Below, piece after piece: positions 2,399-51,842 of a DNA stretch of 64,000 nucleotides (its first letter is position 1; every line of letters begins with the position of its first letter). This DNA is from Chrysomallon squamiferum. Lineage: Eukaryota > Animalia > Mollusca. The translations under genes were made by a program, and so were the position numbers. The notes below the pieces were generated by a model that did no database searches, was not told the DNA's origin, and was given only the letters and a program-made list of their open reading frames with translations. The stretch covers positions 4,278,001-4,342,000 of the forward strand of contig CM022675.1 of assembly GCA_012295275.1 (NCBI GenBank), read 5' to 3'.

Positions 2399-2439
2399 GT
2401 ACAGGAAATTCAATATGATGCCCCCCTCCCAGCACAAAG
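2399..2439 (+). CDS. Probable first coding exon of tau-like gene (ATG at 2415, MMPPSQHK)
   Basis: tgtttcag acceptor ends at 2398. The AAG|gtgtca donor is phase 1, matching the phase-1 start of the 3784 exon. The donor is weak. Confidence 0.5.
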
Positions 2440-2486
2440 GTGTCAATTATTTTGATAGACTCCAGTTATTATTTTTATTTATTTTA

Positions 2487-2562
<76 letters not shown>

Positions 2563-3114
2563 TATTTATTTATTTTATTATTATTATTTTGATTTAATTT
2601 ATATATTTATTTTATCTGTCATTTGCTTTTGTTGTTGTTGTTATTACATTTATATAATATTTTAATTATTTTATTTTAATTAATTACATTTTTTTGCTTT
2701 ATTTTATTTTAATATATGTCATTTTTACTTTATTTTACTTGACTTTATTTGTTATTCTATTGCTTTTATTATAATTATTTAATTATTATTCTAAAAATAT
2801 CTTTAATTCAGTTAGCCATTAAATTACACATTACCGGGCTGCTACTGTAGACTCAGGCTTTACACTATATTTAGCACACTGAATGACCTCTGAGCTAAAA
2901 TGATATCTAACAGACACTAATAGTCTACTGACGTTAGTTGTTTTGAAAACATTCAGTAAAACTTGTAACATACACAATTTAAAACACATGTTCCTGTATG
3001 TAATTATAGCAGTGATTGTTATAAAGAAAATCTGTTTCAAATTATGTAAATATTTTTACTTATGTTATTTTTAGATTTAAAGGAAATCATTAAAGAAATA
3101 AACTTTATTTCTTT

Positions 3115-3146
<32 letters not shown>

Positions 3147-3733
3147 CTTTATTTTTGTTTTTGTGTTTTGTTTTATTTAATTTTATTTTTTTTTTTTTTT
3201 TTTTTTTGTTTGTTTGTTTTTTTGTTTCATTTTACTTTACTTTAATTTAATACTATTTAATTTAAAAAAAAAACAGAAAGGAAAAAATAAGAAATATGCA
3301 AATAACCTCAGGAAAATAATATAATGGCCTTTGATTGAGCATGGATTTTTTATTTGTTTATGTTTCCATAGGAGCATTATTTTATTTGTATTTAACAAAT
3401 TATTAAGTTTGTTTCTTTTTTATGTCTTACTTCACAGTAAAATGTGTTATTAAATTATTATTATTATTATTTAGTTGTTGTTGTTGTTGTGATGATAATC
3501 ATTGTCAAATGACAACAGGCTTTCTTTTGTTTATATATTTAGATTTTTTTATTATTATTATTATTTTTACTTTTTAATATTAAAATTGTTTTCTTTGTAG
3601 TTATTTGTATTTTATTCTGAAACCTTGCTGCAGTTTTTACAGAAAAAAGCTGTGTCAGAACCTTTTTATAATATACACTTATTTATTCATTTTCTTTTAA
3701 TTAATTAATTTATTTGTTTGTTTATATTTTTGT

Positions 3734-3780
<47 letters not shown>

Positions 3781-5311
3781 CAGAAATGTCTGCTCAAGTG
3801 AATGGGGATTTGAACATGGATCCTGGAATGCAGATGGAAAATGGAATGGACACATACATGCAGCAACAACAACAACAACAACAACAACCGCAGCAGCAGC
3901 ACAAAGGTGACCCAATGCAGGCCTCTTTCCACCAGGACTCTTCATACTCCAACCCCTTCGCTGAACCCTACAGCAACAACATACCCATTCCAGAAGGCGT
4001 TCTCATTGATTTCGGTCAGCAGCAACAACAACAACAACAACAACAACAGCCTGACACGATGACAGTGCCGTCAAGCCCCCACCAGATGTCTGAGATGCTG
4101 CACCCTCAGAAGAATGAGATGGTGAAAGAAAACAGCTATCAGAACTCGCACAAACAGTCAGGGGTGGGGGGTGGCCAGCCAGGGGTGGAAACCGATCTGG
4201 ACACCTGCAGGAATGAAAACACGAACAGCGTGGTCGGCATGGCAACAGGTGTTTACGACGAGTGTCACGGAAACGAAACGTCGCGGATGACTGGTCGGGA
4301 TTACTCCACGCTGACACAGAGAGAGGTGAATGCAGCAGCAGCGTCTAACCAGCGAGATGAGCGGAACAATGAGACAAGTTCACTGAGCGCGCTCAGCGAT
4401 CAGCCGGGATTAGGGTCAGCAGTGGTGGGGGGCGGTGAGCGGACAGTCGGGATGGAGGCAGGCGACACGATGGAGGGAGAGGTTTCACGTGACGGACGTG
4501 AAAAAGTGAATTCCGATGACAGACGAACGCTGTACGGAACTGTGGACAGTGGGGGGATTCCGCAGAAGCTGGTTTCCCTCGAGAAGGGGACGGAGAACCG
4601 TGTGTTAGCAGCGAGCAAAGTGGAGGAGAGGAAGAGAGAAGAAACCAGCTGCAAAGACCAGTATGCTGGGTTGTCCCAGAGTGAAGTGGGATCTGTTCAG
4701 GCTGGGGGAAGCAAGTCACATTCTGAACAGGTTTCATCTGTGACCGTTAATGGACACACCACAACCACTGTGGTCAGGTCAGAGGACAAGGACAAGGATA
4801 AGGATAAGGATAAGGATAAACTGGCTGAAAGGCCAAGGGAGAAGAAAAGTGGATTACCGTCTCCGAAGAGGTCTGGATTACCAACTCGTTCCTCCAAGCC
4901 AGTTTCCACTGCTCCCACCATCTCGGCTAAAGGGTGGGACTCAACAGTGGTGATCCCACCCAAACCACGCCCACTCAGTGCTTTAATTACACCTAAAAAT
5001 ATGCAAGGTAATGTCTGCTTGTCTGTCTGTCGGTCGCTTATATGTCTGTTTGCCAGTCATAACTATGTCTGTATCATTTGTCTGTAATTTTGTCCATCTG
5101 TAACAAAACACAGCCTCTCAATACTTTAATAACATAGAGATATTTATTTATTTATTTATTTATTTATGTATTTATTTTTTTGTTTGTTTGTTTGTTTGTT
5201 TGTTTATGTTCTTATTTATTTATTTATTTATTCATAAATTTGTTTATTTGTTTGTTTATTTGTTTGTTTATTTGTTTATTTATCCATTATTTTATTTATT
5301 TATTTATTTTC

Positions 5312-5359
<48 letters not shown>

Positions 5360-5710
5360 ACACTCAGTTCCTCTGTTTGTGTGTAAATGTTTGAAGTGTT
5401 CAGAGACTTGTTACATCTGTTACTGAATATCTTCCCTGACCTATTTTTTACACCTGATGCAGGTAAAATTCAGGTAAATCTCGTTGAATGTGTTTATGTT
5501 TCACATATTTGTATTCATATGACTTTGTACTTAGGTAATTTTATACTGCTTCCGTGGTTCACTGAACAACATGGACAAACCTCTATATTTAGGACAAGCT
5601 AGGAAATTAAATGGATGTTATTGAATGTTTTTTGGTTATTTTATTATTTTATATATGTGTGTGTGTGTGTGTATTTTGTCTGTGTACGAGTGTGTGTGTG
5701 TGTGTATGAC

Positions 5711-5770
<60 letters not shown>

Positions 5771-6691
5771 TATACATATACAGATATAAAATGAATTTAC
5801 TTACTTATATTTCTCTATAACTTCTGTTAGTACTTCTATTTATACTACTGACTATTTTAAAACAGGTAAATAAAAGTTAAAGTAAATAATAATGATAATA
5901 ATAATTAAAAGAACAATAACAACAATAATAAATCTTCAAAACTGTCTTTCTGTGTTGATTTTTAAACATAATGTGTAGTTTAAAATTTAATTTTCTATAT
6001 ATATCAAAAAAGCATTTATTCTTTCATTCTTTTTCTTTCTTCTAATCTGTGATAAATTATATTTACTTAAAAGGTTTTATTTAAAATATTATATAAATTC
6101 ATTTACTGAATATACGAAACAAACCTATTAAAGGTAATTTTTTTAAAAATATATATTACAGTAGTGTTAATACTAATACCATATATTTTTGAAATAAATT
6201 TTTTTAAAACATTTTTTTAAATTTATTTTTCAGAAGAACCCCCACAAAGAACTCGGCCAAGTTCTGCGAAATCGGTGAGTTTAAAATTTTCATTTTTCAG
6301 TCTGTTGTGTCCAGTGACTGGACTTAACTCAATGATAAAACATTCAAGTGATGTTTAATTGATACAGGATCAATTCCCAACAGTAGACAGATTGAGATAT
6401 TTCTCATTCCAACAAGTGCTTCATATCTGGTATAAAGGGGTTATGGTAGGTTCTGTCCTGTTTGTGGGTTGGTGTGTAAATAGGTTTTGCTTGCTGCTGA
6501 TTGTAAAGAGTAGGATGTTGAATGTTGTTTCTTTTCTAAATCTACATGTGTGACTCATAATGATGTAAATTCTACATGTTGTGTGTGTCATTAATTAAAT
6601 ATTATCATCATCATCATCATCATTCTTTTATATTTCATGTTATTTAACTTTGTTCACATAATAGAGCATCATGAGACTGCAGTATTTCTAA

Positions 6692-6727
<36 letters not shown>

Positions 6728-7481
6728 ATGTGTGTGTGGGTGGTGTATGAATATGTTTTGTGTTTTGTAAATGTGTATATATGTGTTTGATGTGTTTGTG
6801 TAAATGTGTATATGTTTGGTGTGTATGTATAGCATGTATGTGTTTGACTTTGTGTGTGGGTCTGTATATGTGTTTGTGTGTGTACAGAGAGAGAGAAAAA
6901 AGTATGAATAGAAGAGACATAGATTAGTCATAATGAAACAAAGAAATCTGATATAAAAAAATATATATATATTTACATAGTTTTCTTCTTTGACTTTTTC
7001 TGTATCTATCTGTATTTTAATCTGTTTCTTGTAGCTTGTGATCTACATAAAAATAAAATTCCATTTAATGTCAGGCAGCATACAAATCAAAAGGGTATCA
7101 ACAGGAGATTATAAACAGTTCTGTGTAATAATAAAAACCTGTTAAAACAGTGAAGTAGCAGCTTCTTACACCTGAATTAAAGACTGAGTAACGTAACTGA
7201 AATCCTCCATCTCTGCTGAAGAGATACAGTCCAGGTTAATTTAACAAATATCTTATAAAGACTGAGTAATTTTTTAATTTTTATTTTGAGAATATTTTTA
7301 TTAATTTTACATTTTTATAATTCCATTTGTCTCTTATTTGATTTTAGCACATATTTAGATAAGCACTTACAAAATATAGAAGAAATAATTTTGCTTACAA
7401 AGAAAATATTTTTGTTGTTACATTTGTTTCATTGGCTTCGTTTACAAGTTTTCTAATAGTTACATATTTAGCTTTTTATTT

Positions 7482-7533
<52 letters not shown>

Positions 7534-8164
7534 GTATTTAATAATTATTTCATTTAATTTGCCTAAGACTCATTTGATCTAGGTTTTGCCTTATGAAATA
7601 CATATAATTACTTTTAATTCAACTGTTATGTTAAATCATAAGAAACTAAAGTAAAAAAAATATAATATATACCATTTTAAACAATTACTTTTATATTTAA
7701 ATTCTTTTCTCATTTTTATATTTATTCTTTCTTTCTTTTCTTTTGTTGCTCATACAAATATTAATATTTAATATTTTTTGATAGTAAAAAAATTTACTTT
7801 GTCTGAGATAAATAAAAATACCTGTCGCATGCTTTGATCTCTGTATCTGCCACTCAAGACTTAACCACTTTGTGTCACAGTAGCAGGTAGTCATGGTGAT
7901 TCAAGTTTTATTTTTGTATTGTTAGTGAACATTCTTGTCAAACCATGACAACAGAAACCTGGTCTGCTGACCTCCAAGTTTCTTTATCTTTTTTTCTTTG
8001 TTTACACAATACCTGTCCTTTACCTGTCCACCTTGTATCACCTGGGTTTACCTGGTTACCTGACATCACCTGTCAGTTTTACCTGTCTGCCTGATGTTAC
8101 CTGTTTCTTTTACCTGGACTATACATTTTATTTTAAAATGGAAGCTTTATGGAACTTTTTTTTT

Positions 8165-8195
<31 letters not shown>

Positions 8196-8567
8196 ATTAT
8201 TATTATTTTCATCATCTTCATCATTATTAATTATTTACTTAATTATTTATTAACTAAAATATCAATATTTTATCTTTAGATAAAAAATCCCAATTAATTT
8301 TTATATAAAATGCCAATAATATCTTTAGTTGTTATGTTCTAATTTTCAGAAACAGTTGGTCAGTTAAATTACCTCCCTTTGAACACTCTTTATGTAAAAC
8401 GTACACACTCCTTGAGGTTCATTACTTTATAGAACCCAGCAAAGACCATTAATTGTGTGTTTCTTCTCTGTTGTACTTGTATATGTTTCTCTATATAAAA
8501 ATGATTATATTTGCAAGATATCTTTTATTATTTTGATTCTTTCATTTTTTTCCTATATTTTTTAAAT

Positions 8568-8602
<35 letters not shown>

Positions 8603-11242
8603 CATTGTACTTTTGTTTATTTATTTATGTATCTTTTTTATTTTTTTTTTTTTTTTTTTTTTCCTTTTTTCTTTCAATGTGTCAATCTGAAGATTTTTGG
8701 GTTTTGTTTTTTAATCTTTCTTCGTTTTTACTCTTTTTTTGTCTTTTTCTTTCGGTAATCTTTCTCTTTATCTCTTCTTGTTTTTTTCTTTCTTTATTTC
8801 TGTCTAGATTTATGGCTGGTTCAGTTACACAACAGGGTATTAAACAGAACACAGAGTAAACTGACAATAATATTAAACACTTAAACAAGTCTTCTTGTAT
8901 CAACTAGAATATCTGTTTATCAATAAATCAAGTGTTAAACCCCACCAGGGCCCCACTCTACACCAGACATCCTACTGTAAATTGTAATTTATGTTATCAT
9001 TACTGTCATTAAATCTACTTTTTAAAATCTTATTTTATTTTATTTTAATCTCTTACTTGACATTTAAGTTTTTTTATATTTTTTTTTTTTTTGTTTTAAT
9101 TATTTATTTTTGATTATTATCTCATATTTATTTCAGATTGTTTTTAATTATTGTTGTTGTTATTATTATTCTTATTATTACTGTTACTATTGTTTCTTCT
9201 AGTACTTCTGCTACTACTACTATACTATTACTACTATTACTACTCTATTACCACTACTACTATTACAACTATTGCCACTACTACAACTGTTATTATATTA
9301 TTACTACTATACTATTACAATTACTACTAATACAACTATTATTATTGTATTATTACTATTATACTATTACAATTACTACTACTGCTACTACTACTGTTTT
9401 TATTATTATTATTATTATTTTAGTAGTAGTACTACTGCTACTGTTACTACTGGAAAACAGTCATATGGAAATCATCCTCAACAGGGCCCCACTATTACCT
9501 GAAACATTCCACTGAGGAGCCATAATTTTATTTGACCAAACCTCAACAAGGCCCCTCTGACATGTAAAATGTGGACATACAAGTTATAGTTTTGTATTAA
9601 ACAAACCCAAATAAGGCCTCACAGTCAGGACAGTTAAAAGTTGTACTAAATTGTAACTGTGTCATTTTTGTTCATTTTTTTCGAGAACATCTTTCAGGAT
9701 TAAGAAAGTTCTTCATGTTACTGGTTTATTTTGCAGTTTTGTTTATTAATTAATTGGATTATCTGCACAACTCAGGTGTAATTACAATGTCACAGGTAAA
9801 AAAAATTAAATTAATTTTAATTGTTTAAAACTTGTTATTGGTATTTACTTTTTAACTTTACTTCTCACCTTTTTTGTTAATCTCTTTTCCTTCGTTTTTA
9901 AATTTATTTAATAATTATTTCTTAGTAACTTCTTATTGTAAAAATATTTCATGTTATTATACAATTAATATGAATTTCATAGGTAATAATTATTTTAAAA
10001 CATACGAAAAATGATATATATATTTCATCTTTCTTTTTTCTTTCATTCTAATGTATTTTGTGTTGGTTCTTTTGCTGTTTTATTTTTTATTTTTTTTATT
10101 TACTTTTTTTTTTATTCATGTTTTTCTAAAACGTTTTTTAAAATTGCAGTTTATTATTTATTTATTAATTTATTTAATTATGTATGTTTTATTTATATTC
10201 TACTTAGAAATTTAAAAAATAAAATTATTCATTTTAAAGAGTATTCATTTAAACATCCTATCACGTACCTTCTGTAGTATTTGCACATTGCAATTATTTT
10301 AAATATAAGTAAAAACAGTTCTGATGTACACAACAATCTAAATCAGACACACAGACACAAACAATACACACATGCATGTGTTCATACTTCTATTATCATA
10401 CATACATTCACATAAAGAATGACACACATACATATATTCAGACATATACATACACACAAGAAGCACCAACCATACATATATATATATATATATATGACAC
10501 ACACATATAACACACAGAAAAATGCACCTGTAAATACAAACTCACAATTTTATCAGAAAAACACACACACACACATAAACACATATATACCCAGAGACAT
10601 ACAGATTCACACTGACACAGGCATAAACACATATATACACCCACAGACATACCCACACACACACAACACACACACACACACACACACATATACACTGACA
10701 CACAGACACACACACACAGAGAGACACCCAGAGACAGACACACACACACACAGAGAAAGACATACACTCAAAGACAAACACAGACACACAAATGTACACA
10801 CATTCAGATGTCAACAGTTTCACCTGTATATCTATCTATACCTCAGACATTTATCTCGAGATTTCACTAGTGTCAAACCTGCCATTTTAACCCTTCTACA
10901 TCCACTTTCCCTGTTTACATCTTGTTAACAGACATTTCCTTCGTGGCTATCTCTAATCTGAGTCTATAGACTCAGCAGGTTTCCCTCCACCTGTCAACCT
11001 CCGAGGGTGAGCTCCAATCAAACCTCTTCTCTCAAGAGAGCTCGTTAAATACAGGTGAAACAAGATGATAAAGGTGAACGGTTTGTCGTTTTTGTTTTAG
11101 AAATTGTTTTGAGGCTGGGGGGGTCTTGGGAGGGGTATTTTTGTATATAACTTTGCTGACCTCATGAGAAAATATTTATTAATTTTCTAATTCTCAATTT
11201 AAAAAATTGATAAAAGTACTAGATAAGGTTTTCTTGTTGGTT

Positions 11243-11281
<39 letters not shown>

Positions 11282-12162
11282 TCATTATTATTATCAGTGT
11301 TACTATTACTATTATTATTATTATTGTCCTATTCAAGAGCATGTTACATGTATGTGTCCAGTTTTTTGTGTGTAATTATATTTTAAAAAATGTTTAGCAA
11401 TATTATAAATATTTAAATTGCATCTTTATACAACTTGACTGCAAACGTCTCTATTATAACCCAGATGACCAATTTTTTAAATTAAAAAGCTTTTCCATGT
11501 TACAGATTAATGAATCTAATAACTTTAGTGAAAATAAAATGTAAATTGTGATTTAATGAAATGAAATATTCAGATAAAGTGGATATTTTGTTAGATAAAA
11601 TAAAATTAAGATAAAAGCATTTTCGTGTTAAAGAGTTAGATGTTTACTAGAAAACTCTCTTGATATGATTCTGTTAAATGTTTTTATAATTTTCTTCAGA
11701 AAAAGAAGGAAGCTGGGGACAAAAATTTAAGGAACTATATTGATAGGGGATTTATTTTGAAAATTACTGAGTTTAATACATGACGAACATCTGTTTATAA
11801 CTTTTTTTATTTATTTATTATTCTGTCTTTAGAAGTAAGGAGATATTCTATGTCTCTGGTCCCCATCCTGTCAGAAATGGTGGGGTGGGGTGGGGTAGGG
11901 TGGGGCAGGGATGAGGTTCCCCTCAAACCCATGTTCATTATTCTTACAATACTGTGTTTAGAGTGGGTAGTCATAGCAACCAAGTTTTGTTTCCTCTTCA
12001 TTTTTAAGAATACGAAATATTGAAAAATGTTTGATTAATAATAATCAAAAAGGCATATCTTGTTATAAGATTCACCTTATTTATTGTCATTTATTTCTTT
12101 TTTTTTAAATTATAAATATTCCTTTTATTTATTTTTTTATTGTTATTGTTATTTGTAATTAT

Positions 12163-12205
<43 letters not shown>

Positions 12206-15200
12206 GCTACTACTATTACTATTATTATTATTATCATTCAGGCTGCTATTATTTCTGTATTCATTACTCCAAAATCAGTGTTCAAGTATGCCTTACCTTG
12301 TGCATACATACAATATATATGTATATATGAATGTATGTTATGTATATGTAATGTGCATGTCTGTTTGTGTGTGTATGTGTGTGTATCTGTGTGTAGTTTC
12401 AAACATAATGTTAAAATAAAAAGAACAAAAACAAATCTATGAATTGTTTTAAAATATGTTAAAATAAAAAGATAAGCAAGTTTATGAATCTAAACAACAG
12501 AAAATGAAATTAACACCTTTTATAAAAATTCTAAATTCATAACAATCTTTGCTCAAATTTAAATTACAATATATACATATAAATAGTGGCAGGGATAAAA
12601 AATATAAATATTTAAATTTCCTGCTAAATTTGTTTTCTTTTTTTTCTTTTTTTTTTATAATTGTTTGTGTTTATAATAATATTTACATTTATTACTGAAC
12701 ATTTTTACTAACATTTAAATAATTTCTGTAACTTTTGCTCTCACAAAATGAAAAGTTTTATAAGCTGTCTGAAGACAGTTTATTATTAGAAATCATTTAT
12801 AACATGTCCTTGTATCTGCACAACTAAATCATCCAATATTTATTTCTTGAAATTTACTGCAGATATTATTGCATGTATAGTTATTGATCTCAGATATTTT
12901 TATCTTTATTGTTATTATCAGATATGTCATGGGGTCATTATTCTGTTATAAATTATGACTTTCATTAGAGGTTAACCTGTGTGTGAATATATGTCTGTCT
13001 GTCTGTGTATGTGAATATATGTATGATCTTATGTGTGTATGAACATACAGATATATGTATATGTGTATGTGTATGTTTGACAAGATCTGTGTGTGTGTGT
13101 GTGTGTGGGTGTGTGTTTGAGTGTGAGTGTGTGTGTGGGTGTGTGTGTGTGGGTGTGTGTGTTTGAGTGTGTTTTTGAGTGTGTGTGTGGGTGTGTGTTT
13201 GTGTGTGTGTGTGAGTGTGTGTTTGAGTGTGTGTTTGTTTGTGTGTGTGTTTGAGTGTGAGTGTGTGTGGGTGTGTGTGTTTGTGTGTGTGTGTGTGTGT
13301 GAGAGTGAGTTAGAGTGTGTGTGTTTGTGTGTGTGAGAGAGTTAGTGTGTGTTTGTGTGTGTGAGTGTGTGTGTGTTTGTGAGAGTGAGTTAGAGTGTGT
13401 GAGTGTGTGTGTGTTTGTGGGTGTGGGTGTGTGTATGTTATAGCAGGCATGTCAAAGATGTGGCCCACAGGCTAGCAAAAATTTCTACAAATACTTTTTT
13501 AAAAAAGCATTTCAATAGTTTGTATGACTTTTGTCAAATACTTTCTTTTAGTAAAACTACTTCATTACTTTTGTATTCATGAATGTTGCTAAGTTGCTAA
13601 AACATCTAAATGCACATCTGTATCACAGATTAAGCAAAGTGCAGATGCAATGAATATAAATTGACTATAGTACATTTTTTGTTTTTTAGTTCTGTTGGTG
13701 CGGACCCAAACATTCTCAAATTTTCTTAAGACTTGAGTTTGACACCCATGTTTTATAGCACATATATAATTGTGGATGTATTTTTCAATTCTGGTTCCAA
13801 GCCCAGTACTTTGTATCTGTCAAGTACTATTTATTTAATGCAAGAAAAAATAAATAAATATAAAAACCATAAAATATCATTTTCTAAATCGGGACTATCA
13901 TTCATTCTAGTTTGTAAAAAAAAAAAAAAGTAATAATAATAAAAAATATTTATATAATAAAATAAAACAGCCATAAAAGTGTAACCTTCGAGTAGTGTTC
14001 AGCTCATTTCTTTGTCAGCTCACAACGTTTGAAGATTTTGGTTATTGATGTTGTATGAAAACTGAATACAAATCAGGTTCATTGCTGTTGTAACTGTGAG
14101 AGAGAGAGAGAAATCTCTGTGAAGTGAGCAGTACAAAGTTTTACTAATCTTTTCTTGTGTGATGTGTAACACTGACATAGTTGTATGTGTGTATATGTGT
14201 GTGTGTATGTGTGTGTGTTTGAGTGTGTATGTGAGTGTGTGAGCATGAGAGAAATCTCTGTGACATTGTGAGCAGTACAAAGTTTTACTACTCTTTTCTT
14301 ATGTGATGTGTAACACTGACATAGTTGTGTGTGTGTGTGTGTTGTGTGTTTGTGTGTGTCTGTGTGTGTCTCTGTATGTGTGTGTGTGTGTTTGAGAGAG
14401 AAATCTCTGTGACGTGAGCAGTACAAAATTTTACTAATCTTTTCTTATGTGATGTGTAACAGTGACATAGTTGTGTGTGTGTGTGTGAGTGTGTGTATGT
14501 GTGTGTGTTTGTGTGTGTCTGTGTGTGTCTGTGTATGTGTGTGTGTTTGTGTGTGTGAGAGAGAAATCTCTGTGATGTTGTGAGCAGTACAAAGTTTTAC
14601 TAATCTTTTCTTATGTGATGTGTAACACTGACATAGTTGTGTGTGTGTGTGTGTTGTGTGTGTGAGTGTGTGTGTGTTTGTGTGTGTATGTCTGTGTGTG
14701 TGTCAGTGTGTGTGTGTGTATGTGTTTGTGCATGTGAGTGTGTGTTTGTGTGTCGGTGTGTGAGTGTGTGTCTGTATGTGTGTGTGTGTGTCTGAGTATG
14801 TGTTGTCTGTGTGTGAGTATGTGTGTGTGTGTGTGAGTATGTGTGTGTGTGTGAAAGTATGTGTGTGGATGTGTGAATGTGTGTGTGAGTATGTGTGTGT
14901 GTGTGCATGTGTGAGTGTGTGTCTGTGTGTGTGTGAGTGGTGAGAGAGAAATCTATGTGTGACATTATAAAATGAATGTGATTTGTATGTGTACATATAT
15001 AATTTCATTTACATTTATATATAGATATAGATACAGATATAGATGTGTATGTATGTATATATTATTTCATTTACTTTTCAATAATCCTCTAACAACTTTG
15101 GAAATGTAATTCAATATTTCTGACCTGTAGTAAACCTGAATTTTTCAATTAGCAGCAAAGGATGTTTTGTGTTTACTCCCTGCCATGGACAGGAAAAAAA

Positions 15201-15291
15201 AATCTATTTTTGATTTCACCAGTTATACAGAGACAGGTGGAAGATCCCAAACATAAATTTGACCACTGCATGATTTATCAGTTTTTTAATT

Positions 15292-15322
<31 letters not shown>

Positions 15323-18300
15323 TTTTATTTGAAAGGTTGATGTATGATTTTTTTTTGGCCTATGTAAGATTTATTTTATTAGATGCAGTAAAACTGTTAA
15401 GATTTGCTATAATCCGTCTGTTAGACATCACTGGTCCAAACTTAGCAGAGAGGAGGACAAGACTTTATTATATATTGTAACATTTTATTCTCAATCTTTT
15501 TTTGACAGTTTTTAGTTTCAAACATCTCTTTGACAAGAGAATATACCACAGCCTTTGTAACACAAACTGTGGAGTTTTGTCTAGAACAGGAAATAGGGAA
15601 TTTTGTGTAAAACAGTTTCATGATTTTAGTTGTGTATATTGTGTATATTAAAATATACTTGAGACAATGACAAATCTTGAAAACTGCTATCTTGAGAGAC
15701 ATTTCATTTCTAAAGCTAAGAACACATCTAGGAAAACAGAATTAAAACCAGATTCTACGATTTTTCTATGAGGTTTGATTGGATTCATATTACAAATTGA
15801 TTATTTTCATTTAGGGGTATGGTAGACTGGATAACTAAGTAGATTAATTTGAGAGGGATGCTGTATTCAGATTTTTTGTGGAATCCAGTACTAACTAGAA
15901 ATTTCTTGTACATTGTGCATATGAGCATTTGAACCCTGACTTACAAAACAAAATACACTATTTACATTTCCAGTCAATATCTAACGAAAATCAAACAGAA
16001 TTACTTTTGATTGTGCTCATTATATTCAGGTGACTTGCCAATGTTCACAAAACCTTCACCTATAATCCGGTTGCTAGGCAACACCAGAATTCTCTGAGAA
16101 TTTATGAATAATCATCTAACAGTAGCCAGCAGTTCTCGCCACTCGATGAAGTGTCGAAGTGCTGGGTCCTGGACAAATAATTGATTTTTCTCTTCGCCTA
16201 CACATCCTGGTCACTTCAGTTTTGTTTACATGTAGACGTTTAAAAATGACTTGAGAAAAGGAAAAAGATATAAGCAGTAATTAAAGGGATATAAGCAAGA
16301 GTAAAAGGATATTGGAAGGGATATTACTTAGCAGTATGAATCAGGTAATATATTGAGATAGAAATGTTTGGTTTTGTGTTGACAGTGTTGACATATTTCT
16401 CTGTTATGGAATCTCTTACAGAAGTATGTAATTTAAATAGCACATATGGATGTCACATTTGTTTCATTCTTAAAATATACATCAGATGATGCTGTCAAAT
16501 GTTCTAATACATGTTGTGTGTGTTTTTCAAGAGATGGTTTTGCTAATGGTTATTTGAGGTCATGTGAATAATCAATAACATTACATATTTTGTTTAGCAA
16601 TGTATACTCACTGCATTTCTTGTTTCACAGCACCTCAGTTAGCAGTAACTCTAAATACAAAGGTGACTTCCCATAAACAGTAAAACATTTGGAAGAGCCT
16701 TTGATAAGCCATGGTATGTACTGGCTATGAAATGTAAAAGATCCTTGCTGCTGGTTGTAAAAGAGTAACCTGTGAGTGATGGTTTGATCTTTCATCAGCT
16801 GTTTTTTTTTCTGTCTGACATTAGACAACATGTTGATTTCAGATGCTAACTGGTTTCCTTTCTGTCTGACATTAGACAACATGTTGATTTCAGATGCTAA
16901 CTGGTTTCCTTTCTGTCTGACATTAGACAACATGTTGATTTCAGATGGTAGCTGTTTTTCTTTCTGTCTGACATTAGACAACATGTTGATTTCAGACGGT
17001 AACTGTTTTTCTTTCTGACATTAGACAACATGTTGATTTCAGATGCTAACTGGTTTCCTTTCTGTCTGACATTAGACAACATGTTGATTTCAGATGCTAA
17101 CTGGTTTCCTTTCTGTCTGACATTAGACAACATGTTGATTTCAGATGCTAACTGGTTTCCTTTCTGTCTGACATTAGACAACATGTTATCTTCAGACGGT
17201 AACTGTTTTTCTTTCTGTCTGACATTAGACAACATGTTGATTTCAGATGGTAACTGTTTTTCTTTCTGTCTGACATTAGACAACATGTTGATTTCAGACA
17301 GTAACTGTTTTTCTTTCTGACATTAGACAACATGTTGATTTCAGATGCTAACTGGTTTCCTTTCTCAGAGAGGTTCTTAACCATTTGTTTAATAACAGCA
17401 GCGAATACTGAATACATTAACTATATTAATACAGTGGTACCTTGAGTTGTGAGTGCTCCAACTTACAAGAGTTTCGAGTTTTTGCTTTGAGTTGTGAGCC
17501 GAAATCCAAGTTATGAGCAAATTTCAGATAGGTCACAATGAACAACACAACATCTCAAAAGAATCCCATGTCTCACTCATTTACTTCACGTGGTTACCTC
17601 CCCATGGAAGCATCTCTGTTGTGTTGTGCTTGTGTTTTGTGCACTGTTTTGCCAAATTTCCATGGATCCTAAGAAACTGAATGCAAAGGACAGTGCAGAG
17701 AAGAAGAAGCAGATGATGTCCATTGAATTAAAGCGTGAAATCATAGAAAAACATGAGTGAGGTGTGCATATAGTCGACATGGCTAGTCAGTATGAGTGTA
17801 GTACTTCTAGGATATGTACCATACTGAAGCTAAAGGAGTTGATAAAGGCTATAACACCAACCAAAGGCGTTAATATAATTTTTCTGATCTCCAAGATAAA
17901 TACATTTTACAAAGCCAATTTATTTCTTTTCATTCTCATTTATTTTGTTTTTATAATATTTGTCATTTTTAAATACATTTTTCTTATTTAAAAATACATT
18001 ACAAAAAAAAAAAAAAAAAAATTATTAAAAAAAAATGGTGTGTTTTGGGGGAGCTGCAATGGATTAATGGTATTTCAGTTAATTTCAGAAAAAAAAAAGA
18101 AATTGTAATCAGTTTTAAAATATGTAGTATTTTTTATTTTGTTTGTGTACTAAGTATGCACTGCTGTAAGTTGTTCTGTTTAAAATCAAAGTTTAGTTTG
18201 TGTTATGTCAGTTTTTATTTACAAAAGAATTACTGGTTTCTTTCATTAACCGCAAGTTATGTGACTTCTGATTGTTGTCAAGAACCTGGTTTATGTTTGT

Positions 18301-18848: not shown

Positions 18849-18879
<31 letters not shown>

Positions 18880-19215: not shown

Positions 19216-19246
<31 letters not shown>

Positions 19247-19318
19247 TTGTTATTATTTTTGTAATTATTTTTTAATGCAGTTATAACATGTAATTTATTA
19301 TGGTGTCAAAAGAAGAAA

Positions 19319-19372
<54 letters not shown>

Positions 19373-36039: not shown

Positions 36040-36089
<50 letters not shown>

Positions 36090-36720: not shown

Positions 36721-36812
<92 letters not shown>

Positions 36813-37569
36813 TCATATACAGATTTACATATGTATAATGTAATTTATTTATAAAGTTCACTTTGACTAGTTTCTACATAAATGAGTATGTGTATAATGT
36901 GGGTATAAGTTTTTCTATTTGTTTATGTTCATGTATAAATATGTGAACTGTTCTTTTTTCTCTGTGTGTGTGTCTTAGAAGAAAGAATGCAAAATGAAGA
37001 CAGAAATGATTTGTGTGTGTGTCTATGTATATGTGTGATTGTGTGTGTGTGTATGTATATGTGTGATTGTGTGTGAGTATGTGCATATGTTTTTGTGTGA
37101 TTAGCTCTGTTAGTGTGTGACAGTGTTGTGTGTGTGATTTTGTGACAAGAAATATTCTAAAAACATTTGTATCATACTATTCTTAGAGTTCAATCAATAC
37201 AAAATGTTTGTACGTGATTAATTTATGTAGAATTAATGTGTTTCTTACTTCTAAGTAAGGTTTGATGTGGTATTTATGTGAGGTTTTTTTTTTGTCAGTG
37301 AATATGTTTGTGTGTTTTTTGTGTGTGATTATGTTTATATGAGTATTTGTGTGTCATTAGAATAACCTGTGTTGTGATACTGTCAAAACCTGAAGGTAAT
37401 TGTATTTTCTGAAGGCTCAGTCTTTTTAGTTTTTGTAGTTACAGTCCATCAGGGTTGCTGAATTTTGAATCTTTGTTTTGTGTTTCTGATGACAGCAGAT
37501 TTTAATCCGTGAATAATATAAAGTATTTACTTATTTATTTACACTAGTTACAGTTATATAAAATGGGTT

Positions 37570-37611
<42 letters not shown>

Positions 37612-44584: not shown

Positions 44585-44590
44585 TTTATT
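44585..44590 (-). other. Candidate poly(A) signal of mini-tau
   Basis: tttatt on + (AATAAA on -), followed on - by tgttgtttgtttt. Confidence 0.3.
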
Positions 44591-45847
44591 GTCATAACAA
44601 CTCTTACATTATAAATAAATTCATAAAAAATAATAAATTAAAAAGGTAAACTAAGTATATCTACATCTGTAACAAGAAAGTGCAATTAAATATAACTTAT
44701 ACAAAGCATGTTGCAGATACACAAACACACAGACACATGGACAACAACAAAATATATAAATATAAAATGTATTGATTATTAAATAAATGGAAACCAGATT
44801 TTATGAGAATAAAAAGTGTTACATACAAAATCTAAACATTTCTAAAATAGAAAAATAAATTTATGTCTAAATATGACAAACAAAATAATTCTTTCACTTA
44901 GGTTTTCAAAAGAAATAATTTCTAAACATTGTAAATTGTTTTTATTACATAAAAAATAAATGTCAGGAAAACATACATGCAAACATACGTACATATATAA
45001 TAATTATAATAATAATAACAAAATTATCTAATGTTTGAAGAATAAAAACATTAAAAAAAAGACTTTTCTACACAAAAATAAAAAGTTAAAACAGCCCATG
45101 AGTTTACGTATAATATTTTGTGTAGAATTAAACAAATTTACATATATTTCACAAATCACAATAACACCATGATATTTTTATTTTGTAGTACATATTACTT
45201 AGAAGAGTGATAAATATGTTTGTAACTTTTGTTTTTTTATTATCAGCAGGGAAAAATTTATTTAAAAACCAACATTTACGAGAATATAAACATTTCTGGT
45301 ACATGTATGTAAATATTTCTTATATGATCTGCAATTAATTAATTTAAAAAAAACAAAGTCTAATTTTTAACAATATTTATAAAATGCACTATTCTGTCAT
45401 ATTGTAAAGATCTGTAATACATTTTGTAAAAGCTTACACTGCCAAACAATAAGTAGATTCTATTGTTATTAAATAATAAATAGCATTTAATAAACAATTC
45501 ATATTTAAAAACTACACAATATAACAGTATCACTGCCACTATACTACACAACATGTTGTAACAAATAACACTACATTCCATATAACATGCTGGTTTATAT
45601 AAAATAATGTTACACTGGTTTTGTACATAAAGTTACATGTAACGTTTGTAAGGATATGAAATAACCAGTTTTCTTACAATTCTATGTATAATGCATCTGA
45701 ATAAATAAGCGTAATATGACAATGCTGTATACACATGTTTGTAAACTAGTTAAAGCAATATGGAATATCTGTAATAACTTAAACCAAAATGCCTTGTCAC
45801 CATGTTCTGTTCCTGTTATACCTGTACACAAAAACAAAACAAATAAC

Positions 45848-46451: not shown

Positions 46452-46492
46452 CTGTAAACTGATTACCAGTCATCAAGTTTGTGACTCTCAAT
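46452..46492 (-). CDS. Mini-tau last coding exon IESHKLDDW*, followed by a probable 3'UTR intron
   Basis: attcag acceptor; IESHKL resembles tau IETHKL; TAA, then CAG|gtaagt 11 nt later; candidate next acceptor ttttacag at 46071-46078. Confidence 0.8.
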
Positions 46493-49163
46493 CTGAATAA
46501 CAATAACAATAACAATAACAACAACAATAACAACAATAATAGGAATAATTGTAACGATAATTTTTTTAATATTAATAATAACAAAAATATTTAAAAAAAA
46601 TTAAAAAGAAAACAATAATGATGGTAATAATGAAAATAATAATAATAATTTAATAATAATGATAATGATGATAATAATACTGATGATGATGGTGGTGATG
46701 ATATTAATAATAATAATAATGATAATGATGATGATGATAATAATAATAATGATATTAATAATAATTGCAATAAATAAATAATAACAATGGCAACTATGAT
46801 GACACAGCAACAAAGAGAAATGATTCACACAAACATTTCAGTATAACGTACATTTCAGTATCACACAAACATTTCAGTGTAACACAAACATTTCAGTACA
46901 ACACAAACATTTCATTGTAGCACAAACATTTCAGTATAACATACATTTCAGTATAACACAAACATTTCAGTGTAACACAAACATTTCGGTATAACACAAA
47001 CATTTCAGTATAACACAAACATTTCAGTATAACACAAACATTTCAGTGTAACACAAACATTTCAGCGTAACAAACATTTCAGTACAACACAAACATTTCA
47101 GTATAACACAAACATTTCAGTACAACACAAACATTTCAGTATAACATATACATTTCAGAACAACACATACATTTTAGTATGACACAAACATTTCAGTATT
47201 ACACAAACATTTCAGTTTAGCACCTACATTTCAGTATAACACCTACATTTCAGTATGACACAAACATTTCAGTATGACACAAACATTTCAGTATAACACA
47301 TACATTTCAGTATGACACAAACATTTCAGTACAACACAAACATTTCAGTATAACACAAACATTTCAGTATCACACAAACATTTCAGTATCACACAAACAT
47401 TTTAGTATAACACATACACATACATTTCAGTGTAACACAAACATTTCAGTGTAACACATACATTTCAGTATAACACATACATTTCAGTGTAACACATACA
47501 TTTCAGTGTAACACATACATTTCAGTGTAACACATATGTTTCAGTATAACACAAACATTTCAGTATAACAAACATTTCAGTATAACACAAACATTTCAGT
47601 GTAATACAAACATTTCAGTACAACACAAACATTTCAGTACAACACAAACATTTCAGTACAACAGAAACATTTCAGTGTAACACAAACATTTCAGTCTGAC
47701 ACAAACATTTCAGTGTAACACATACATTTCAGTATGACACAAACATTTCAGTATGACACAAACATTTCAGTATATCACATACATTTCAGTATGACACATA
47801 CATTTCAGTGTAACACATACATTTCAGTATGACACAAACATTTCAGTATGACACAAACATTTCAGTATAACACATACATTTCAGTATGACACACATTTCA
47901 GTATGACACATACATTTCAGTATGACACCTACATTTCAGTATAACACCTACATTTCAGTATGACACAAACATTTCAGTATGACACATACATTTCAGTATG
48001 ACACAAACATTTCAGTATAACACAAACATTTCAGTATAACACATACATTTCAGTATGACACACACATTTCAGTATGACACACACATTTCAGTACGACACA
48101 AACATTTCAGTATGACACATACATTTCAGTATGACACCTACATTTCAGTATGACACCTACATTTCAGTATGACACATACCTTGGTCTGACCACCACCAGC
48201 TACGTGGGCTGCATTGTCCAGAGATCCAACTTTAGACTTTGCATCAACTTTCACTTTCTCATCAAACACCTGAAATGGTTAACTCACATCTTCAACAACA
48301 TAATTATTCCAAATTATATCACTGCACATTAATACATTCAAAACTTTGAATTCCACAAGATACTTTTACTGCAGAGAGTGAAATTAATATAAAATAATTA
48401 TTTTAAATAGATTTAAATTAAACCTATCGCTGTTGGGAAATTTAGATAAATGTTAAAGTTTTAAACTATAAATAAATAAATAAATAAATTAATTAATTAA
48501 TAATCACCTTTTCCTGACCACCACCAGCTACATGGGCTGCATTGTCCAGAGATCCAACTTTAGACTTTGCATCAACTTTCACTTTCTCATCAAACACCTA
48601 ATAAATAATTTAAAAATAAAAAAGTTAATTAAATAATGATAAAAACAACAACAATAATAATGACAAACAAGAACAAAAACAATAATAATAATATTTTCAT
48701 TTTAAATATTTCAGAAAATAAATAACAAAATTAATAAATTAAAAACTACAAAAGTATTACTAAAATAAAATAAAATAAAATAAAATAAAATAAAATAATG
48801 ACTTTTTCTTGTCCACCACCAGCTACATGGGCTGCATTGTCCAGAGATCCAACTTTAGACTTTGCATCAACTTTCACTTTCTCATCAAACACCTAATTAA
48901 TAATGAAAAAGACAAATAAATAAATAAACTAACAATTTTTTTTAAAGAATTTAAAACATAATAATAAAAATTAAAATATAATAAGCAAAAAAAAACCAAA
49001 CAAAACCCAACAACAACAAATAAATTAATAAATAAATATAAAATAATAATTATATGTTTTTATAATTTGTAATTTATTATAAATGACATCATAATCTGTA
49101 ATATTATATTATCATAATATTATTATTTTTTAAATTATTCAAGGCACAAAAAACCCTAATAAT

Positions 49164-49198
<35 letters not shown>

Positions 49199-49546
49199 AT
49201 AATAATAATATTACTAATGATAATAGCAATTATTTTAAATAAGTTAAATAAAATAAAATAAAATAAAATAAAATAATGACTTTATCTTGTCCACCACCAG
49301 CTACATGAGCTGCATTGTCCAGAGATCCAACTTTAGACTTTGCATCAACTTTCACTTTCTCATCAAACACCTGAAATGTTTAACTCACATCTTCAACAAC
49401 ATAATTATTCCAAATTATATCACTGCACATTAATACATTCAAAACTTTGAATTCCACAAGATACTTTTACTGCAGAGAGTGAAATTAATATAAAATAATT
49501 ATTTTAAAAATATTTAAATTAAACCTGATGTTAAAGTTTTAAACTA

Positions 49547-49589
<43 letters not shown>

Positions 49590-51514
49590 ATTAATTAATT
49601 AATTAATTAATTAATTAATTAATAAATTAATAAATAAATAAATAATTAATAACCTTTTCCTGACCACCACCAGCTACATGGGCTGCATTGTCCATAGATC
49701 CAACTTTAGACTTTGCATCAACTTTCACTTTCTCATCAAACACCTAATTAATAATAAATATATAAATAAATAAATAAATAAATAAAAGATAGATAAAAAA
49801 AATAAACAAATAAATAAATAAAATAATATTAAATAAAATAAAATTAAATTAAATTTTAAAAGAAAATAACAGTAATAAGTAAAATATAAGATAAACAAAT
49901 ATGAATAAACAACCAAAAAACAATAAATAAATATTTTTATAATTTATTATAATTTATTAGTTCCAGTAAATCTACATCATAATAAAAATAAATTTTACAA
50001 ATTATCCATAAAATAATGTTTTTTTTTTTTTTTATCCACATCATCAAAATTATCAGCATACAGAACCAAACAAAAATAAAATAAAGAAAAATAAAATAAA
50101 ATAAAATAAAACAATACAAAATAAAATAAAATAAAATAAAATAAAATAAAATAAAACAATACAAAATAAAATAAAATAAAATAAAATAAAATAAAATAAA
50201 ACAATACAAAATAAAATAAAATAAAATAAAATAAAATAATGACTTTCTCTTTTCCACCAGCAGCTACATGTGCTGCATTGTCCAGAGATCCAACTTTAGA
50301 CTTTGCTTCAACTTTCACTTTCTCATCAAACACCTAATTAAATGATAAATATAAAAGTGTTATAAAATCAGTCTTCTCCTTCTCCCCACTCAAATAATAA
50401 TAATAATAAAAAAAAGGCAATTATTTTAACTGAATTTGATTACAAATAAAAATGTATGAATAATGTTTAACTGCAAATTGAAAAATGAAGCTAAAGCCAA
50501 AAAAGAAAAAGAAAAAGAAATTGTTATATGAATTTGAAAATGTGGAATTAAATTGTATATTTTTTTCAAAGGTTGTAGTTATTATTTTTAAATTGTATAT
50601 TTTGTTCAAAGGTTGTAGTTATTATTATTAAATTGTATATTTTTTTCAAAGGTTGTAGTTATTGTTATTAAATTGTATATTTTTTTCAAAGGTTGTAGTT
50701 ATTGTTATTAAATTGTATATTTTTTTCAAAGGTTGTAGTTATTATTATTAAACTGTATATTTTTTTCAAAGGTTGTAGTTATTGTTATTAAATTGTGTTA
50801 TAAGGCAAACATCATCAGTCCTCATTATTAGTTTATTTATTCTAAATATACATTATCACAAATACTGAAAGAAAAAATAACAATAATAATAATAATAAAG
50901 AAGGACAGAAAGACAGACAGACATATACAGATTGAAACAGACAAGCAGACAGCCTGGAGATAGACAGAGAGACAGACAGACAGATCAGACACAGACACAT
51001 ACAGACAGACACACAGACACACACACACATATATATATATACAGAAAAAGACAGACAGCCACATGGACAGAGACTTAAAGAAATACAGACAGAAACTGAC
51101 AAATATACACAGAACTCCAGACAGATCAGAAAGAGACACAGACAGACAGACAGACATAGAAACATACAGCCAGACAGACATAGATACAGAGACTTACTGA
51201 CAGACAGATAAACAGGCAGGCAGACAGAGAGCCAGAGAGACAAACCAGAGAGACAGAGACAGAGAGAGACATATATTTAGAGAGAGAGAGAGAAAGATAG
51301 AGAAAGACATGTTATTATTTAATTGGTTTTCTATAACAAACAGAAGAAGACGCACTAACAGACAGTTGGACACCCACTCATTAAAAAACTACCTTGGTTT
51401 TTCCTCCACCTGCAACATGTTTTGCATTGTCCAGTGATCCAATCTTTGACTCAATCTAAACACAACAAAACAGTTTTAGCAAAGTATGCACACATCAGTC
51501 TCTTACAGCTCCTC

Positions 51515-51555
<41 letters not shown>

Positions 51556-51816
51556 ATGTGACAGCTGAGAAGTACACGAAATGCATACATATATGTACAA
51601 AACAATCATATATACATACACACACATGTACAAAGATACATATGTAAATACATACACACTTGTATATATATACAGACACATACATAAATATATACATATA
51701 TTCATATATACACATTTACACAGACACACTCACACACACACACACACATATGCAAACACATAGACATGTGTAGGGTACAAAATAAATTTAGGTTATATTA
51801 CCTTCTTCTTTGACAT
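46463..51816 (-). CDS. Minimal tau-like protein (~215 aa, 7 repeats); complement(join(46463-46492,48180-48269,48508-48597,48803-48892,49281-49370,49654-49743,50244-50333,51393-51455,51802-51816))
   Basis: MSKKK | [21 protein letters not shown] | 6 x VFDEKVKV[D/E]AKSKVGS[L/M]DNAAHVA[G/A]GG[Q/K][E/D/T]K | IESHKLDDW*. All junctions are AG/GT and phase 0, with an in-frame TAA just upstream of the ATG. Confidence 0.85.
46826..48179. repeat. 19-bp satellite, ~70 copies; its first minus-strand unit starts at the donor of exon 48180-48269
   Basis: acacaaacatttcagtat[a/g] repeated. Confidence 0.95.
48180..50333 (-). CDS. Array of six near-identical 90-nt tau-repeat exons (50244-50333, 49654-49743, 49281-49370, 48803-48892, 48508-48597, 48180-48269)
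   Basis: Each begins ag|GTGTTTGATGAGAAAGTG. Donors in transcript order are gtcatt, gttatt, gtcatt, gtcatt, gtgatt, gtatgt. Confidence 0.9.
50551..50797. repeat. 40-bp tandem repeat, ~6 copies
   Basis: aattgtatatttttttcaaaggttgtagttattgttatta repeated. Confidence 0.9.
51393..51455 (-). CDS. Mini-tau repeat exon [21 protein letters not shown]
   Basis: tgtttag acceptor, AAG|gtagtt donor, 63 nt. Confidence 0.9.
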
Positions 51817-51842
51817 TATTTCAGTTTAATGTATGGATTCAC
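51802..51842 (-). CDS. Mini-tau start exon (5'UTR + ATG TCA AAG AAG AAG)
   Basis: tttctag acceptor, AAG|gtaata donor, ATA-ATG context; phase 0 joins 51455. Confidence 0.7.

What the first reader, a model, noticed from the sequence alone, without database searches (positions are those of the whole stretch)
2415..51842. Three architecturally different tau-family genes in one ~50-kb cluster
Seen: a long multi-exon MAP2/tau-like gene, an intronless tau-repeat gene inside its last intron, and a convergent repeat-only mini-tau. All three use 30-aa repeats but differ strongly in sequence and charge. Established: Drosophila (tau) and C. elegans (ptl-1) each have a single family member, and vertebrate MAPT/MAP2/MAP4 are unlinked. 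Inference: a lineage-specific local diversification of tau into long, basic-intronless and minimal forms, possibly for different microtubule systems such as axons versus cilia or sperm.
Basis: partly seen in the sequence, partly recalled or inferred. Interest (0 to 1): 0.85.

Follow-up and report, generated by a model that had tools for sequence, protein, structure and literature searches.

The report
Mollusc tau locus hides second tau
This snail's tau gene carries, inside its last intron, a second and very different tau-like coding sequence that snails and clams share and that likely borrows the host gene's last exon to end, possibly for sperm or cilia, while a third, likely young, repeat-only copy sits next door facing the other way.

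Summary
All three tau-repeat units are real, but the cluster is mostly old. A is the ordinary mollusc tau (52% identical to Gigantopelta aegis tau) and has a 1-nt frameshift in one exon, possibly an assembly error. B, the 384-aa basic ORF in A's last intron, has orthologs in 13 named gastropod and 6 named bivalve species. RefSeq lists it next to tau in Haliotis rubra and Mya arenaria, and a Batillaria gene model joins it to tau's last exon. B is probably not free-standing: its ORF ends in a splice donor whose read-through signature recurs in 11 of 21 ortholog clusters, and splicing to A's last exon would give Tyr-stop, as two orthologs end. C, the convergent 215-aa mini-tau, has no ortholog in the searches. 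Its six near-identical repeats are charge-neutral and proline-free, so it is predicted to bind microtubules weakly. Transcription is weakly hinted for B only; tissue and function are untested. 'Lineage-specific diversification' fails for A and B and may hold for C. Verdict: a mollusc-wide variant of the tau locus, not described in the papers searched.

The parts
2415..38576 (+). Gene A, canonical mollusc tau/MAP2/MAP4-family gene. Coding exons 2415-2439, 3784-5007, 6234-6274, 19066-19198, 20192-20316, 21045-21127, 21795-21904, 24520-24609, 28295-28384, 29080-29169, 29425-29514, 30838-30927, 38448-38576; 772 aa, 8 repeats
   Evidence: Splice sites and frame; 52% identity over 800 columns to Gigantopelta aegis tau, C-terminal exons 66-91%
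21045..21127 (+). Repeat exon of A, 83 nt, with a 1-nt frameshift in its middle (assembly error or real lesion; unresolved)
   Evidence: Frame 0 matches orthologs in the first half and frame +1 in the second; an alternative donor at 20305 could skip the exon in frame
34149..34162 (+). RFX X-box-like motif about 650 bp upstream of B's ATG; candidate internal-promoter element
   Evidence: Pattern scan. Weak: patterns recalled and chosen after seeing the sites; no match upstream of B in L001 or L002
34807..35961 (+). Unit B: single 384-aa ORF in A's last intron; conserved N-terminal motif (about residues 49-105), about 7 Trp-linker tau repeats, no acidic projection domain
   Evidence: present in independent data, with 21 of 27 substitutions synonymous
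35951..35956 (+). GTAAGT 5' splice site (phase 1) inside the Cys-Lys codons at the end of B; predicted to splice to 38448
   Evidence: One of 2 GTAAGT in the 7.5-kb intron; Cys-Lys/Glu read-through in 11 of 21 ortholog clusters and Tyr-stop in 2
38448..38576 (+). A's terminal exon (pseudo-repeat and tail); predicted to give B its stop codon and 3' UTR in another frame
   Evidence: Only acceptor between 35951 and 38460 that yields Tyr plus stop; the Batillaria B model ends in this exon's peptide
46452..51842 (-). Gene C, convergent repeat-only mini-tau. ATG 51816; exons 51842-51802, 51455-51393, 50333-50244, 49743-49654, 49370-49281, 48892-48803, 48597-48508, 48269-48180, 46492-46452 (stop ends 46463); 215 aa
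   Evidence: the six repeat exons are about 94-99% identical where aligned, arranged as a duplicated triplet
44590..45821 (-). Predicted 3' UTR exon of C (end approximate, at one of several AATAAA)
   Evidence: Strong donor at 46452, 11 nt after the stop; acceptor at 45822

Best explanation
This is the ordinary mollusc tau gene (A), whose last intron holds an old second tau coding exon (B) shared by gastropods and bivalves that is likely transcribed from its own internal promoter and, in gastropods, likely spliced onto A's last exon for its stop codon and 3' UTR, beside a likely young inverted duplicate of A's repeat exons (C) predicted to bind microtubules weakly. Shown: the anatomy, B's orthologs, B's neighbourhood to tau in other molluscs, and purifying selection on B. 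Inferred: the B splice (about 0.7), an internal promoter, and expression of C (about 0.6). Predicted function: A works like tau/MAP2, binding the lattice through basic repeats and a proline-rich flank while its acidic projection spaces microtubules. B keeps basic repeats but has no acidic projection, so it would stabilise and tightly pack microtubules, most likely in spermatids or ciliated cells (about 0.45). C has KxGS repeats but no flanks, no proline and about zero net charge per repeat, like an isolated repeat domain, so it would act as a weak modulator or decoy rather than a stabiliser.
For: Age of B. 62 fetched proteins besides window B carry its N-terminal motif (63 hits of 491; 18 of the 62 were in the seed). 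The named ones cover 13 gastropod and 6 bivalve species. The 14 B rows form one group, SH-aLRT 80. Linkage. H. rubra tau isoforms are XP_046580151-164 and B is XP_046580165, all on a 1,009,815-bp contig; Mya tau is XP_052803362-371 and B is XP_052803372; tau and B share the longest-contig length in Mercenaria and H. asinina. Nesting. Batillaria model P0007 maps with residues 34-384 to B and residues 377-398 to A's last exon at 73%. Contig L003 shows directly a tau repeat exon, a 523-codon Trp-rich tau ORF, then the tau last exon. Splice. Cys-Lys/Glu, the translation of T|GTAAG or T|GTGAG, ends 11 of 21 clusters of non-bivalve-type B and Tyr-stop ends 2. It occurs 0 times in 9,484 body residues and in the last 40 residues of 4 of 407 other tau proteins. 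No AATAAA/ATTAAA follows B's stop for 1.8 kb, against 22 in the 3.9 kb of intron before B. Selection. 21 of 27 substitutions in run X5 are synonymous against 0.22 expected (p about 1e-9), and its one indel is in frame. C. Its repeats are 47-58% identical in DNA to A's and use the same 90-nt phase-0 exon; it falls among A-type rows; nothing fetched matches a C repeat better than 20 of 30 residues. Function by analogy: repeats alone bind and stiffen weakly, and projection size sets spacing (PMC2136754, PMC6692637, passages); two of three planarian tau homologs are testis-enriched (PMC6743461, passages).
Against: No read crosses the predicted B splice. RNA contigs on B are short (226-275 nt, depth 3.5-6.4), lie in 2 of 3 RNA runs laid, and may be DNA. 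RefSeq models in three Haliotis species, and a Logan protein, read through the donor as single-exon genes. Limpet B models end without the signature, as do all 29 bivalve-type B; L001 and L002 have their own stops. By my crude matrix the donor ranks only 25th of 483 GT sites. Nucella tau and B lie on contigs of different length, though that tau model lacks the terminal-exon peptide. The nested ORF of L003 lacks B's N-terminal motif and falls outside the B group. The X-box is not seen upstream of B in L001 or L002, and a single X-box is not predictive (PMC2375033). Knock-down of the planarian testis paralogs gave no spermatogenesis defect (PMC6743461). There are no expression data for C or A, and A has a frameshift as assembled.
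Confidence: 0.6

Rival explanations
1. B is a free-standing single-exon nested gene (an old retrocopy of tau mRNA) with its own stop and poly(A) site; the donor at its end is unused or minor.
For: RefSeq names B as a separate gene in H. rubra, H. asinina, H. cracherodii and Mya. Bivalve ORFs in L001 and L002 are uninterrupted and have their own stops. B has many repeats in one exon whereas A has about one per exon.
Against: Cys-Lys/Glu at the aligned end in 11 of 21 clusters and Tyr-stop in 2; tails after that point are unconserved and intron-like; Batillaria model joined to the last exon. Retroposition as the origin is compatible with either reading and was not tested.
Confidence: 0.25
2. C is a non-expressed or decaying duplicate, or its six-exon array is inflated by assembly.
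For: No ortholog among 678 candidates or 1.84 billion representatives. Three of six donors score -0.1 against 4.7-10.6 for A's 12 donors. Only 7 of 12 variable sites are third positions, and introns 2 and 5 are 97% identical. No RNA evidence.
Against: Nine exons with AG/GT sites, no stop or frameshift, an ATG exon with an upstream in-frame stop, and a spliced 3' UTR with the junction 11 nt after the stop. The introns differ in length (205-500 nt), which argues against a plain duplicated haplotype.
Confidence: 0.3
3. All three genes arose by recent local duplication in this lineage.
For: Three units within 50 kb; C looks young.
Against: B orthologs in 19 named species of two classes, adjacent to tau in abalone and clam.
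Confidence: 0.05
4. B is a giant cassette exon spliced into the long tau protein.
For: Same strand, inside the gene; the Batillaria model reaches the last exon in frame; phase-0 AG sites exist inside B.
Against: In-frame stop 6 codons before B's ATG, and the N-terminus aligns from residue 1 with P0001. Internal phase-0 acceptors have T content of at most 0.35 against 0.40-0.85 for A's 12. The long isoforms I read from H. rubra, Mya and Gigantopelta hold no B block, and none of the fetched tau isoforms hits the B motif profile. The end donor is phase 1, out of frame with the last exon.
Confidence: 0.05

Closest known systems
MAPT/MAP2/MAP4 family (Pfam PF00418; human tau, PDB 6CVN and 7PQC among the hits)
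   Same: Tandem KxGS repeats; B hits human tau at E 8e-22 and the C profile at E 2e-20; A has projection, proline-rich region, repeats and pseudo-repeat.
   Different: B has no acidic projection, is aromatic-rich (9.4% against 2.8% in A) and has its own N-terminal motif; C has no proline, no flanks and neutral repeats.
Planarian Smed-MAPT-L1, -L2, -L3 (PMC6743461)
   Same: Three tau-family genes in a spiralian, duplicated independently of vertebrates; two are testis-enriched.
   Different: No nesting or clustering in the passages read; 3-4 repeats each; orthology to B not tested.
RefSeq 'tau-like' genes beside tau in Haliotis rubra (XP_046580165) and Mya arenaria (XP_052803372)
   Same: Orthologs of B with consecutive accessions on the same scaffold as tau.
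   Different: Automatic annotations only; the Haliotis models read through the predicted donor; no paper found for six such identifiers.
Saitohin (STH) in human MAPT intron 11 (PMC4815063)
   Same: A single-exon ORF nested in a tau intron.
   Different: STH overlaps repeat elements, its intact ORF is confined to great apes, and it is not described as a tau-repeat protein; B is a tau paralog shared by two mollusc classes.
Isolated four-repeat tau construct K18 (PMC2136754)
   Same: Repeat-only architecture like C; stiffens microtubules only slightly.
   Different: K18 is artificial, basic and keeps PGGG (recalled); C is natural, neutral and has Ala in place of that Pro in 6 of 6 repeats.

Membership tests
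tau/MAP2/MAP4 family (A) | C-terminal tandem PF00418 repeats with KxGS and PGGG | tested here: met
   8 of 8 KxGS, 7 of 8 PGGG; Pfam hit above the cut-off on one exon
tau/MAP2/MAP4 family (A) | Acidic N-terminal projection, basic proline-rich flank, terminal pseudo-repeat | tested here: met
   Net -20 for residues 1-330 and +40 after; last exon matches orthologs
tau/MAP2/MAP4 family (A) | Intact reading frame | tested here: inconclusive
   1-nt shift in exon 21045-21127; no reads laid there
tau/MAP2/MAP4 family (B) | PF00418 repeats | tested here: met
   205.8 bits, 6 stretches; 5 of 7 KxGS, 5 of 7 PxGG
tau/MAP2/MAP4 family (B) | Acidic projection domain | tested here: not met
   384 aa, net +35, basic throughout; a member by its repeats, not by the full architecture
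tau/MAP2/MAP4 family (B) | Intrinsic disorder | tested here: inconclusive
   AlphaFold2 mean pLDDT 44.8, pTM 0.16 with 20 sequences; consistent with disorder but also with a shallow alignment
tau/MAP2/MAP4 family (C) | PF00418 repeats with KxGS | tested here: met
   39.6 bits on one exon against a cut-off of 27; 6 of 6 KxGS
tau/MAP2/MAP4 family (C) | PGGG motif, basic repeats, flanking regions | tested here: not met
   0 of 6 PGGG, 0% proline, net 0 to +1 per repeat; only 141 of 2,542 fetched repeats are at or below 0
tau/MAP2/MAP4 family (all three) | Microtubule binding and stabilisation | not testable with these tools
   Needs co-sedimentation or TIRF
Processed retrogene (B) | No intron in the transcript, own poly(A) site | tested here: inconclusive
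   The ORF is uninterrupted, but a conserved terminal donor is inferred and there is no poly(A) signal for 1.8 kb
RFX target gene (B) | Conserved X-box near the transcription start | tested here: inconclusive
   Motif at 34149; none in 1.07 kb upstream in L002 or 0.2 kb in L001

The most novel reading that the evidence does not exclude
Since before gastropods and bivalves split, the mollusc tau gene has made a second, sequence-distinct MAP from a promoter in its last intron: a projection-less, Trp-rich, basic tau for sperm or cilia that takes its stop codon from tau's own last exon read out of frame. That intron is a long-lived nursery for such exons (a second intronless 11-repeat tau follows B in L002; a different one sits there in L003). 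This snail has added an expressed, natural repeat-only tau with neutral, proline-free repeats that may self-assemble or titrate tau partners and kinases.
Probability: 0.3. Interest if true: 0.7.

Novelty: new variant of a known kind. Interest (0 to 1): 0.47.

Why it matters
Reviews of tau evolution treat invertebrate homologs as similar in architecture (PMC4815063, section read). Molluscs instead keep at least two deeply diverged tau types in one locus. B and C are natural deletion experiments on the two open parts of the tau mechanism, the projection domain and the repeat flanks, so they make the spacing and 'jaws' models testable with evolved proteins. A shared last exon read in two frames would be an unusual constraint on tau's pseudo-repeat exon. 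In practice, work that uses Aplysia or other molluscs as tau models needs to tell tau from B, and the automatic B models probably end wrongly in gastropods.

Tried and rejected
No whole genome is held, so neighbours beyond the window could not be searched. Reads were obtained for B only; A's frameshift, the B junction and C remain unread. AlphaFold2 of B gave no usable fold beyond a possible hairpin at residues 49-65, so no fold search was run. The ESM Atlas on B residues 15-130 gave only tau clusters at 0.78-0.80, below the trust level. Searches for a C ortholog found only multi-repeat tau proteins (141 hits of 678 candidates; 672 hits, best 150 seen). The idea that C is the 3' end of a longer gene was rejected because of an in-frame stop upstream of its ATG. 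The idea that C is a duplicated haplotype of A was rejected because exon DNA identity is only 47-58%. The long N-terminal extension of Haliotis tau models has no match in the window. Three look-ups of earlier findings returned nothing. Ten paper searches listed no paper on a nested mollusc tau paralog. The library lacks most subscription papers and supplements are not searched, so mollusc gonad expression tables could hold B unseen. No complex prediction was run, since no binding between these proteins is claimed.
Full report
Source and anatomy. The window is AT-rich animal DNA. No genome is held for it. Six-frame scanning found tau motifs in three places, and I built exon models from splice sites and frame. 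The closest named tau is that of the gastropod Gigantopelta aegis, 52% identical over 800 columns, with C-terminal exons at 66-91%. The window is therefore probably from a related snail (inference).

Gene A. Thirteen coding exons give 772 aa: an acidic N-half (net -20), a basic proline-rich part and 8 repeats. Exon 21045-21127 is 83 nt; its first half matches orthologs in one frame and its second half in the next. An 82-nt exon ending in phase 1 inside the PGGG motif is also what I recall for human MAPT exon 11 (recalled, not checked). An assembly error is the simplest reading. An in-frame skip from a donor at 20305 is possible. I have no reads there.

Unit B is old. The search with B gave 335 hits among 1,170 candidates, of which 120 were listed. 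A profile of B's N-terminal motif hit 63 of 491 sequences: window B and 62 others, 18 of which were in the seed. The named ones are Haliotis (3 species), Elysia (3), Patella (2), Plakobranchus, Batillaria, Nucella, Lottia, Pomacea, Mercenaria, Mya, Dreissena, Pinctada and Saccostrea (2). No named cephalopod or non-mollusc was among them. In a quick tree of 35 repeat blocks (140 columns) the 14 B rows form one side of a branch with SH-aLRT 80, an unstarred value. B is under selection: 21 of 27 substitutions in run X5 are silent against 0.22 expected, p about 1e-9 (7e-6 at 0.35), and the single indel is 3 nt. X5 looks like diploid DNA (inference from paired contigs at half depth), so B is not an assembly artefact. 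RNA support is weak: three short contigs in 2 of 3 RNA runs laid, depth 3.5-6.4, possibly DNA.

B sits with tau in other molluscs. In H. rubra, the 12 tau isoform proteins carry accessions XP_046580151-164 and B is XP_046580165, all on a 1,009,815-bp contig. In Mya arenaria they are XP_052803362-371 and XP_052803372. Tau and B share a chromosome length in Mercenaria and H. asinina. That RefSeq numbers follow gene order is my own knowledge. The Batillaria model P0007 is B followed by the peptide of tau's last exon (73% to window 38439-38504), which requires B upstream of that exon on the same strand. Of 24 metagenome loci, two carry the B motif, both as uninterrupted ORFs (L001, L002). L002 has a second intronless 11-repeat tau ORF 3.2 kb downstream, 54-55% identical to P0011 and P0017. 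L003, whose host exon best matches scallop tau, shows exon, long ORF and last exon directly, but its ORF is not B-type. One result points the other way: Nucella tau and B are on contigs of different length. That tau model lacks the last-exon peptide, so a contig break in the last intron would explain it.

B probably shares A's last exon. B's ORF ends with Cys-Lys codons that contain a GTAAGT donor at 35951, one of two in the 7.5-kb intron, though only 25th of 483 GT sites by a crude recalled matrix. Splicing in phase 1 to 38448 gives Tyr and a stop, and this is the only acceptor in between that does so. I grouped the 33 of 62 B-type proteins that lack the bivalve signature into 21 clusters at 80% identity. 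Eleven end in Cys-Lys or Cys-Glu at the aligned place, two end in Tyr-stop (Nucella and one Logan protein), and eight show neither: Batillaria, two limpet clusters, three oyster-like ones, one without an anchor, and the P0001 cluster, which has Ser-Lys aligned to the window's Cys-Lys. Controls: 0 such dipeptides in 9,484 body residues, 4 of 407 other tau tails and 0 of 29 bivalve-type tails. Clusters are related, so these are not independent events. No poly(A) signal follows B's stop for 1.8 kb. Against: no junction read, RefSeq Haliotis models read through, and bivalves appear to stop within the exon.

Gene C. Nine exons give 215 aa, starting at its own ATG with a stop upstream, and the 3' UTR is spliced 11 nt after the stop. 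The six repeat exons differ at 12 of 90 positions, 7 of them third positions; introns 2 and 5 are 97% identical, indicating a recent triplet duplication. Three donors are weak, so some exons may be skipped, which keeps the frame. No ortholog was found; the best single repeat among 488 fetched proteins matched 20 of 30 residues. Exon size, phase and the tree place C with A-type repeats (C's composition was flagged as atypical). An inverted duplication of A's repeat exons is the likely origin.

How it likely works. Passages of PMC2136754 and PMC6692637 state that repeats alone bind and stiffen microtubules weakly, that the flanks are needed, and that projection size sets spacing. A has all parts. 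B has basic, Trp-linker repeats and no acidic projection, and AlphaFold2 finds no confident fold, so it would pack microtubules closely. For the tissue I rely on analogy with the testis-enriched planarian paralogs (PMC6743461) and on an X-box-like motif about 650 bp upstream. One pattern found 6 sites in the window against null means of 0.67 and 0.27, but the patterns were recalled and chosen after seeing sites, the motif is absent upstream in L001 and L002, and PMC2375033 warns that one X-box predicts little. RFX2 sites lie close to start sites in mouse spermatid genes (PMC4498915). C's repeats are net 0 to +1 against a mean of +2.86 for 2,542 fetched repeats, and C has no proline, so weak binding is predicted. 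Self-assembly is speculation.

What is known. I read passages of PMC4815063 (plus its phylogeny section), PMC8840921, PMC6743461, PMC4498915, PMC2375033, PMC2136754 and PMC6692637; other papers were seen only as search listings, and no supplements were read. Several tau-family genes in one spiralian are in print (planarian three, Aplysia two). Ten searches listed nothing on a nested mollusc paralog or a shared last exon.

Verdict. What remains is a conserved mollusc variant of the tau locus that I did not find described, with one inferred splicing twist and one young mini-tau of unknown expression. Interest 0.47.

Noticed in passing
window 1852-2342 and 39974-40474: Inverted duplicate of about 500 bp, 91.5% identical, bracketing A's coding exons; a mobile element or a relic of local rearrangement.
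   Followed up: no
window 1356-1368 and 16070-16082: Two identical near-palindromic X-box-like 13-mers, one about 1 kb upstream of A's first coding exon and one in intron 3; the second could mark a promoter for a short tau isoform.
   Followed up: partly
window 4848-4887 (A residues about 364-375): Two Ser-x-Leu-Pro motifs in A's basic region; Ser/Thr-x-Ile/Leu-Pro recurs at a similar place in several mollusc orthologs and is absent from window B and C. It resembles the SxIP EB-binding motif (recalled).
   Followed up: partly
L002 5845-7203: Second intronless tau-repeat ORF (453 codons, 11-12 repeats) 3.2 kb downstream of B in a bivalve contig, related to P0011 and P0017; a further tau type absent from this window.
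   Followed up: partly
L003 3406-4977: A different long Trp-rich tau ORF nested in the last intron of tau, without B's N-terminal motif.
   Followed up: partly
window about 57060-61439, + strand: Multi-exon single-pass membrane protein gene: Thr/Ser-rich stalk, transmembrane stretch near 59940-60010, cytoplasmic tail with repeated Tyr-Asp and Tyr-Asn-x-Leu motifs, receptor-like; no Pfam family above cut-off for the tail.
   Followed up: partly
window about 55000-56700, - strand: Fragmented transposase-like reading frames, probably a hAT-type remnant (resemblance recalled; no Pfam hit above cut-off).
   Followed up: no
window 17481-17903 and 62078-62522: Two 78%-identical copies of a Tigger/pogo-like DNA-transposon remnant (family name recalled).
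   Followed up: no
window 16811-17365, 23960-24525, 46825-48182: Minisatellite arrays; the last two abut repeat exons of A and C.
   Followed up: no
bivalve-type B proteins (e.g. L001 205-1704): 18 of 29 end in Thr-Val-stop, either a conserved C-terminal binding motif or a disguised splice donor.
   Followed up: no
proteins P0032, P0061, P0094, P0112: Multi-repeat tau-like proteins in named glomeromycete, mucoralean and chytrid fungi among the hits.
   Followed up: no
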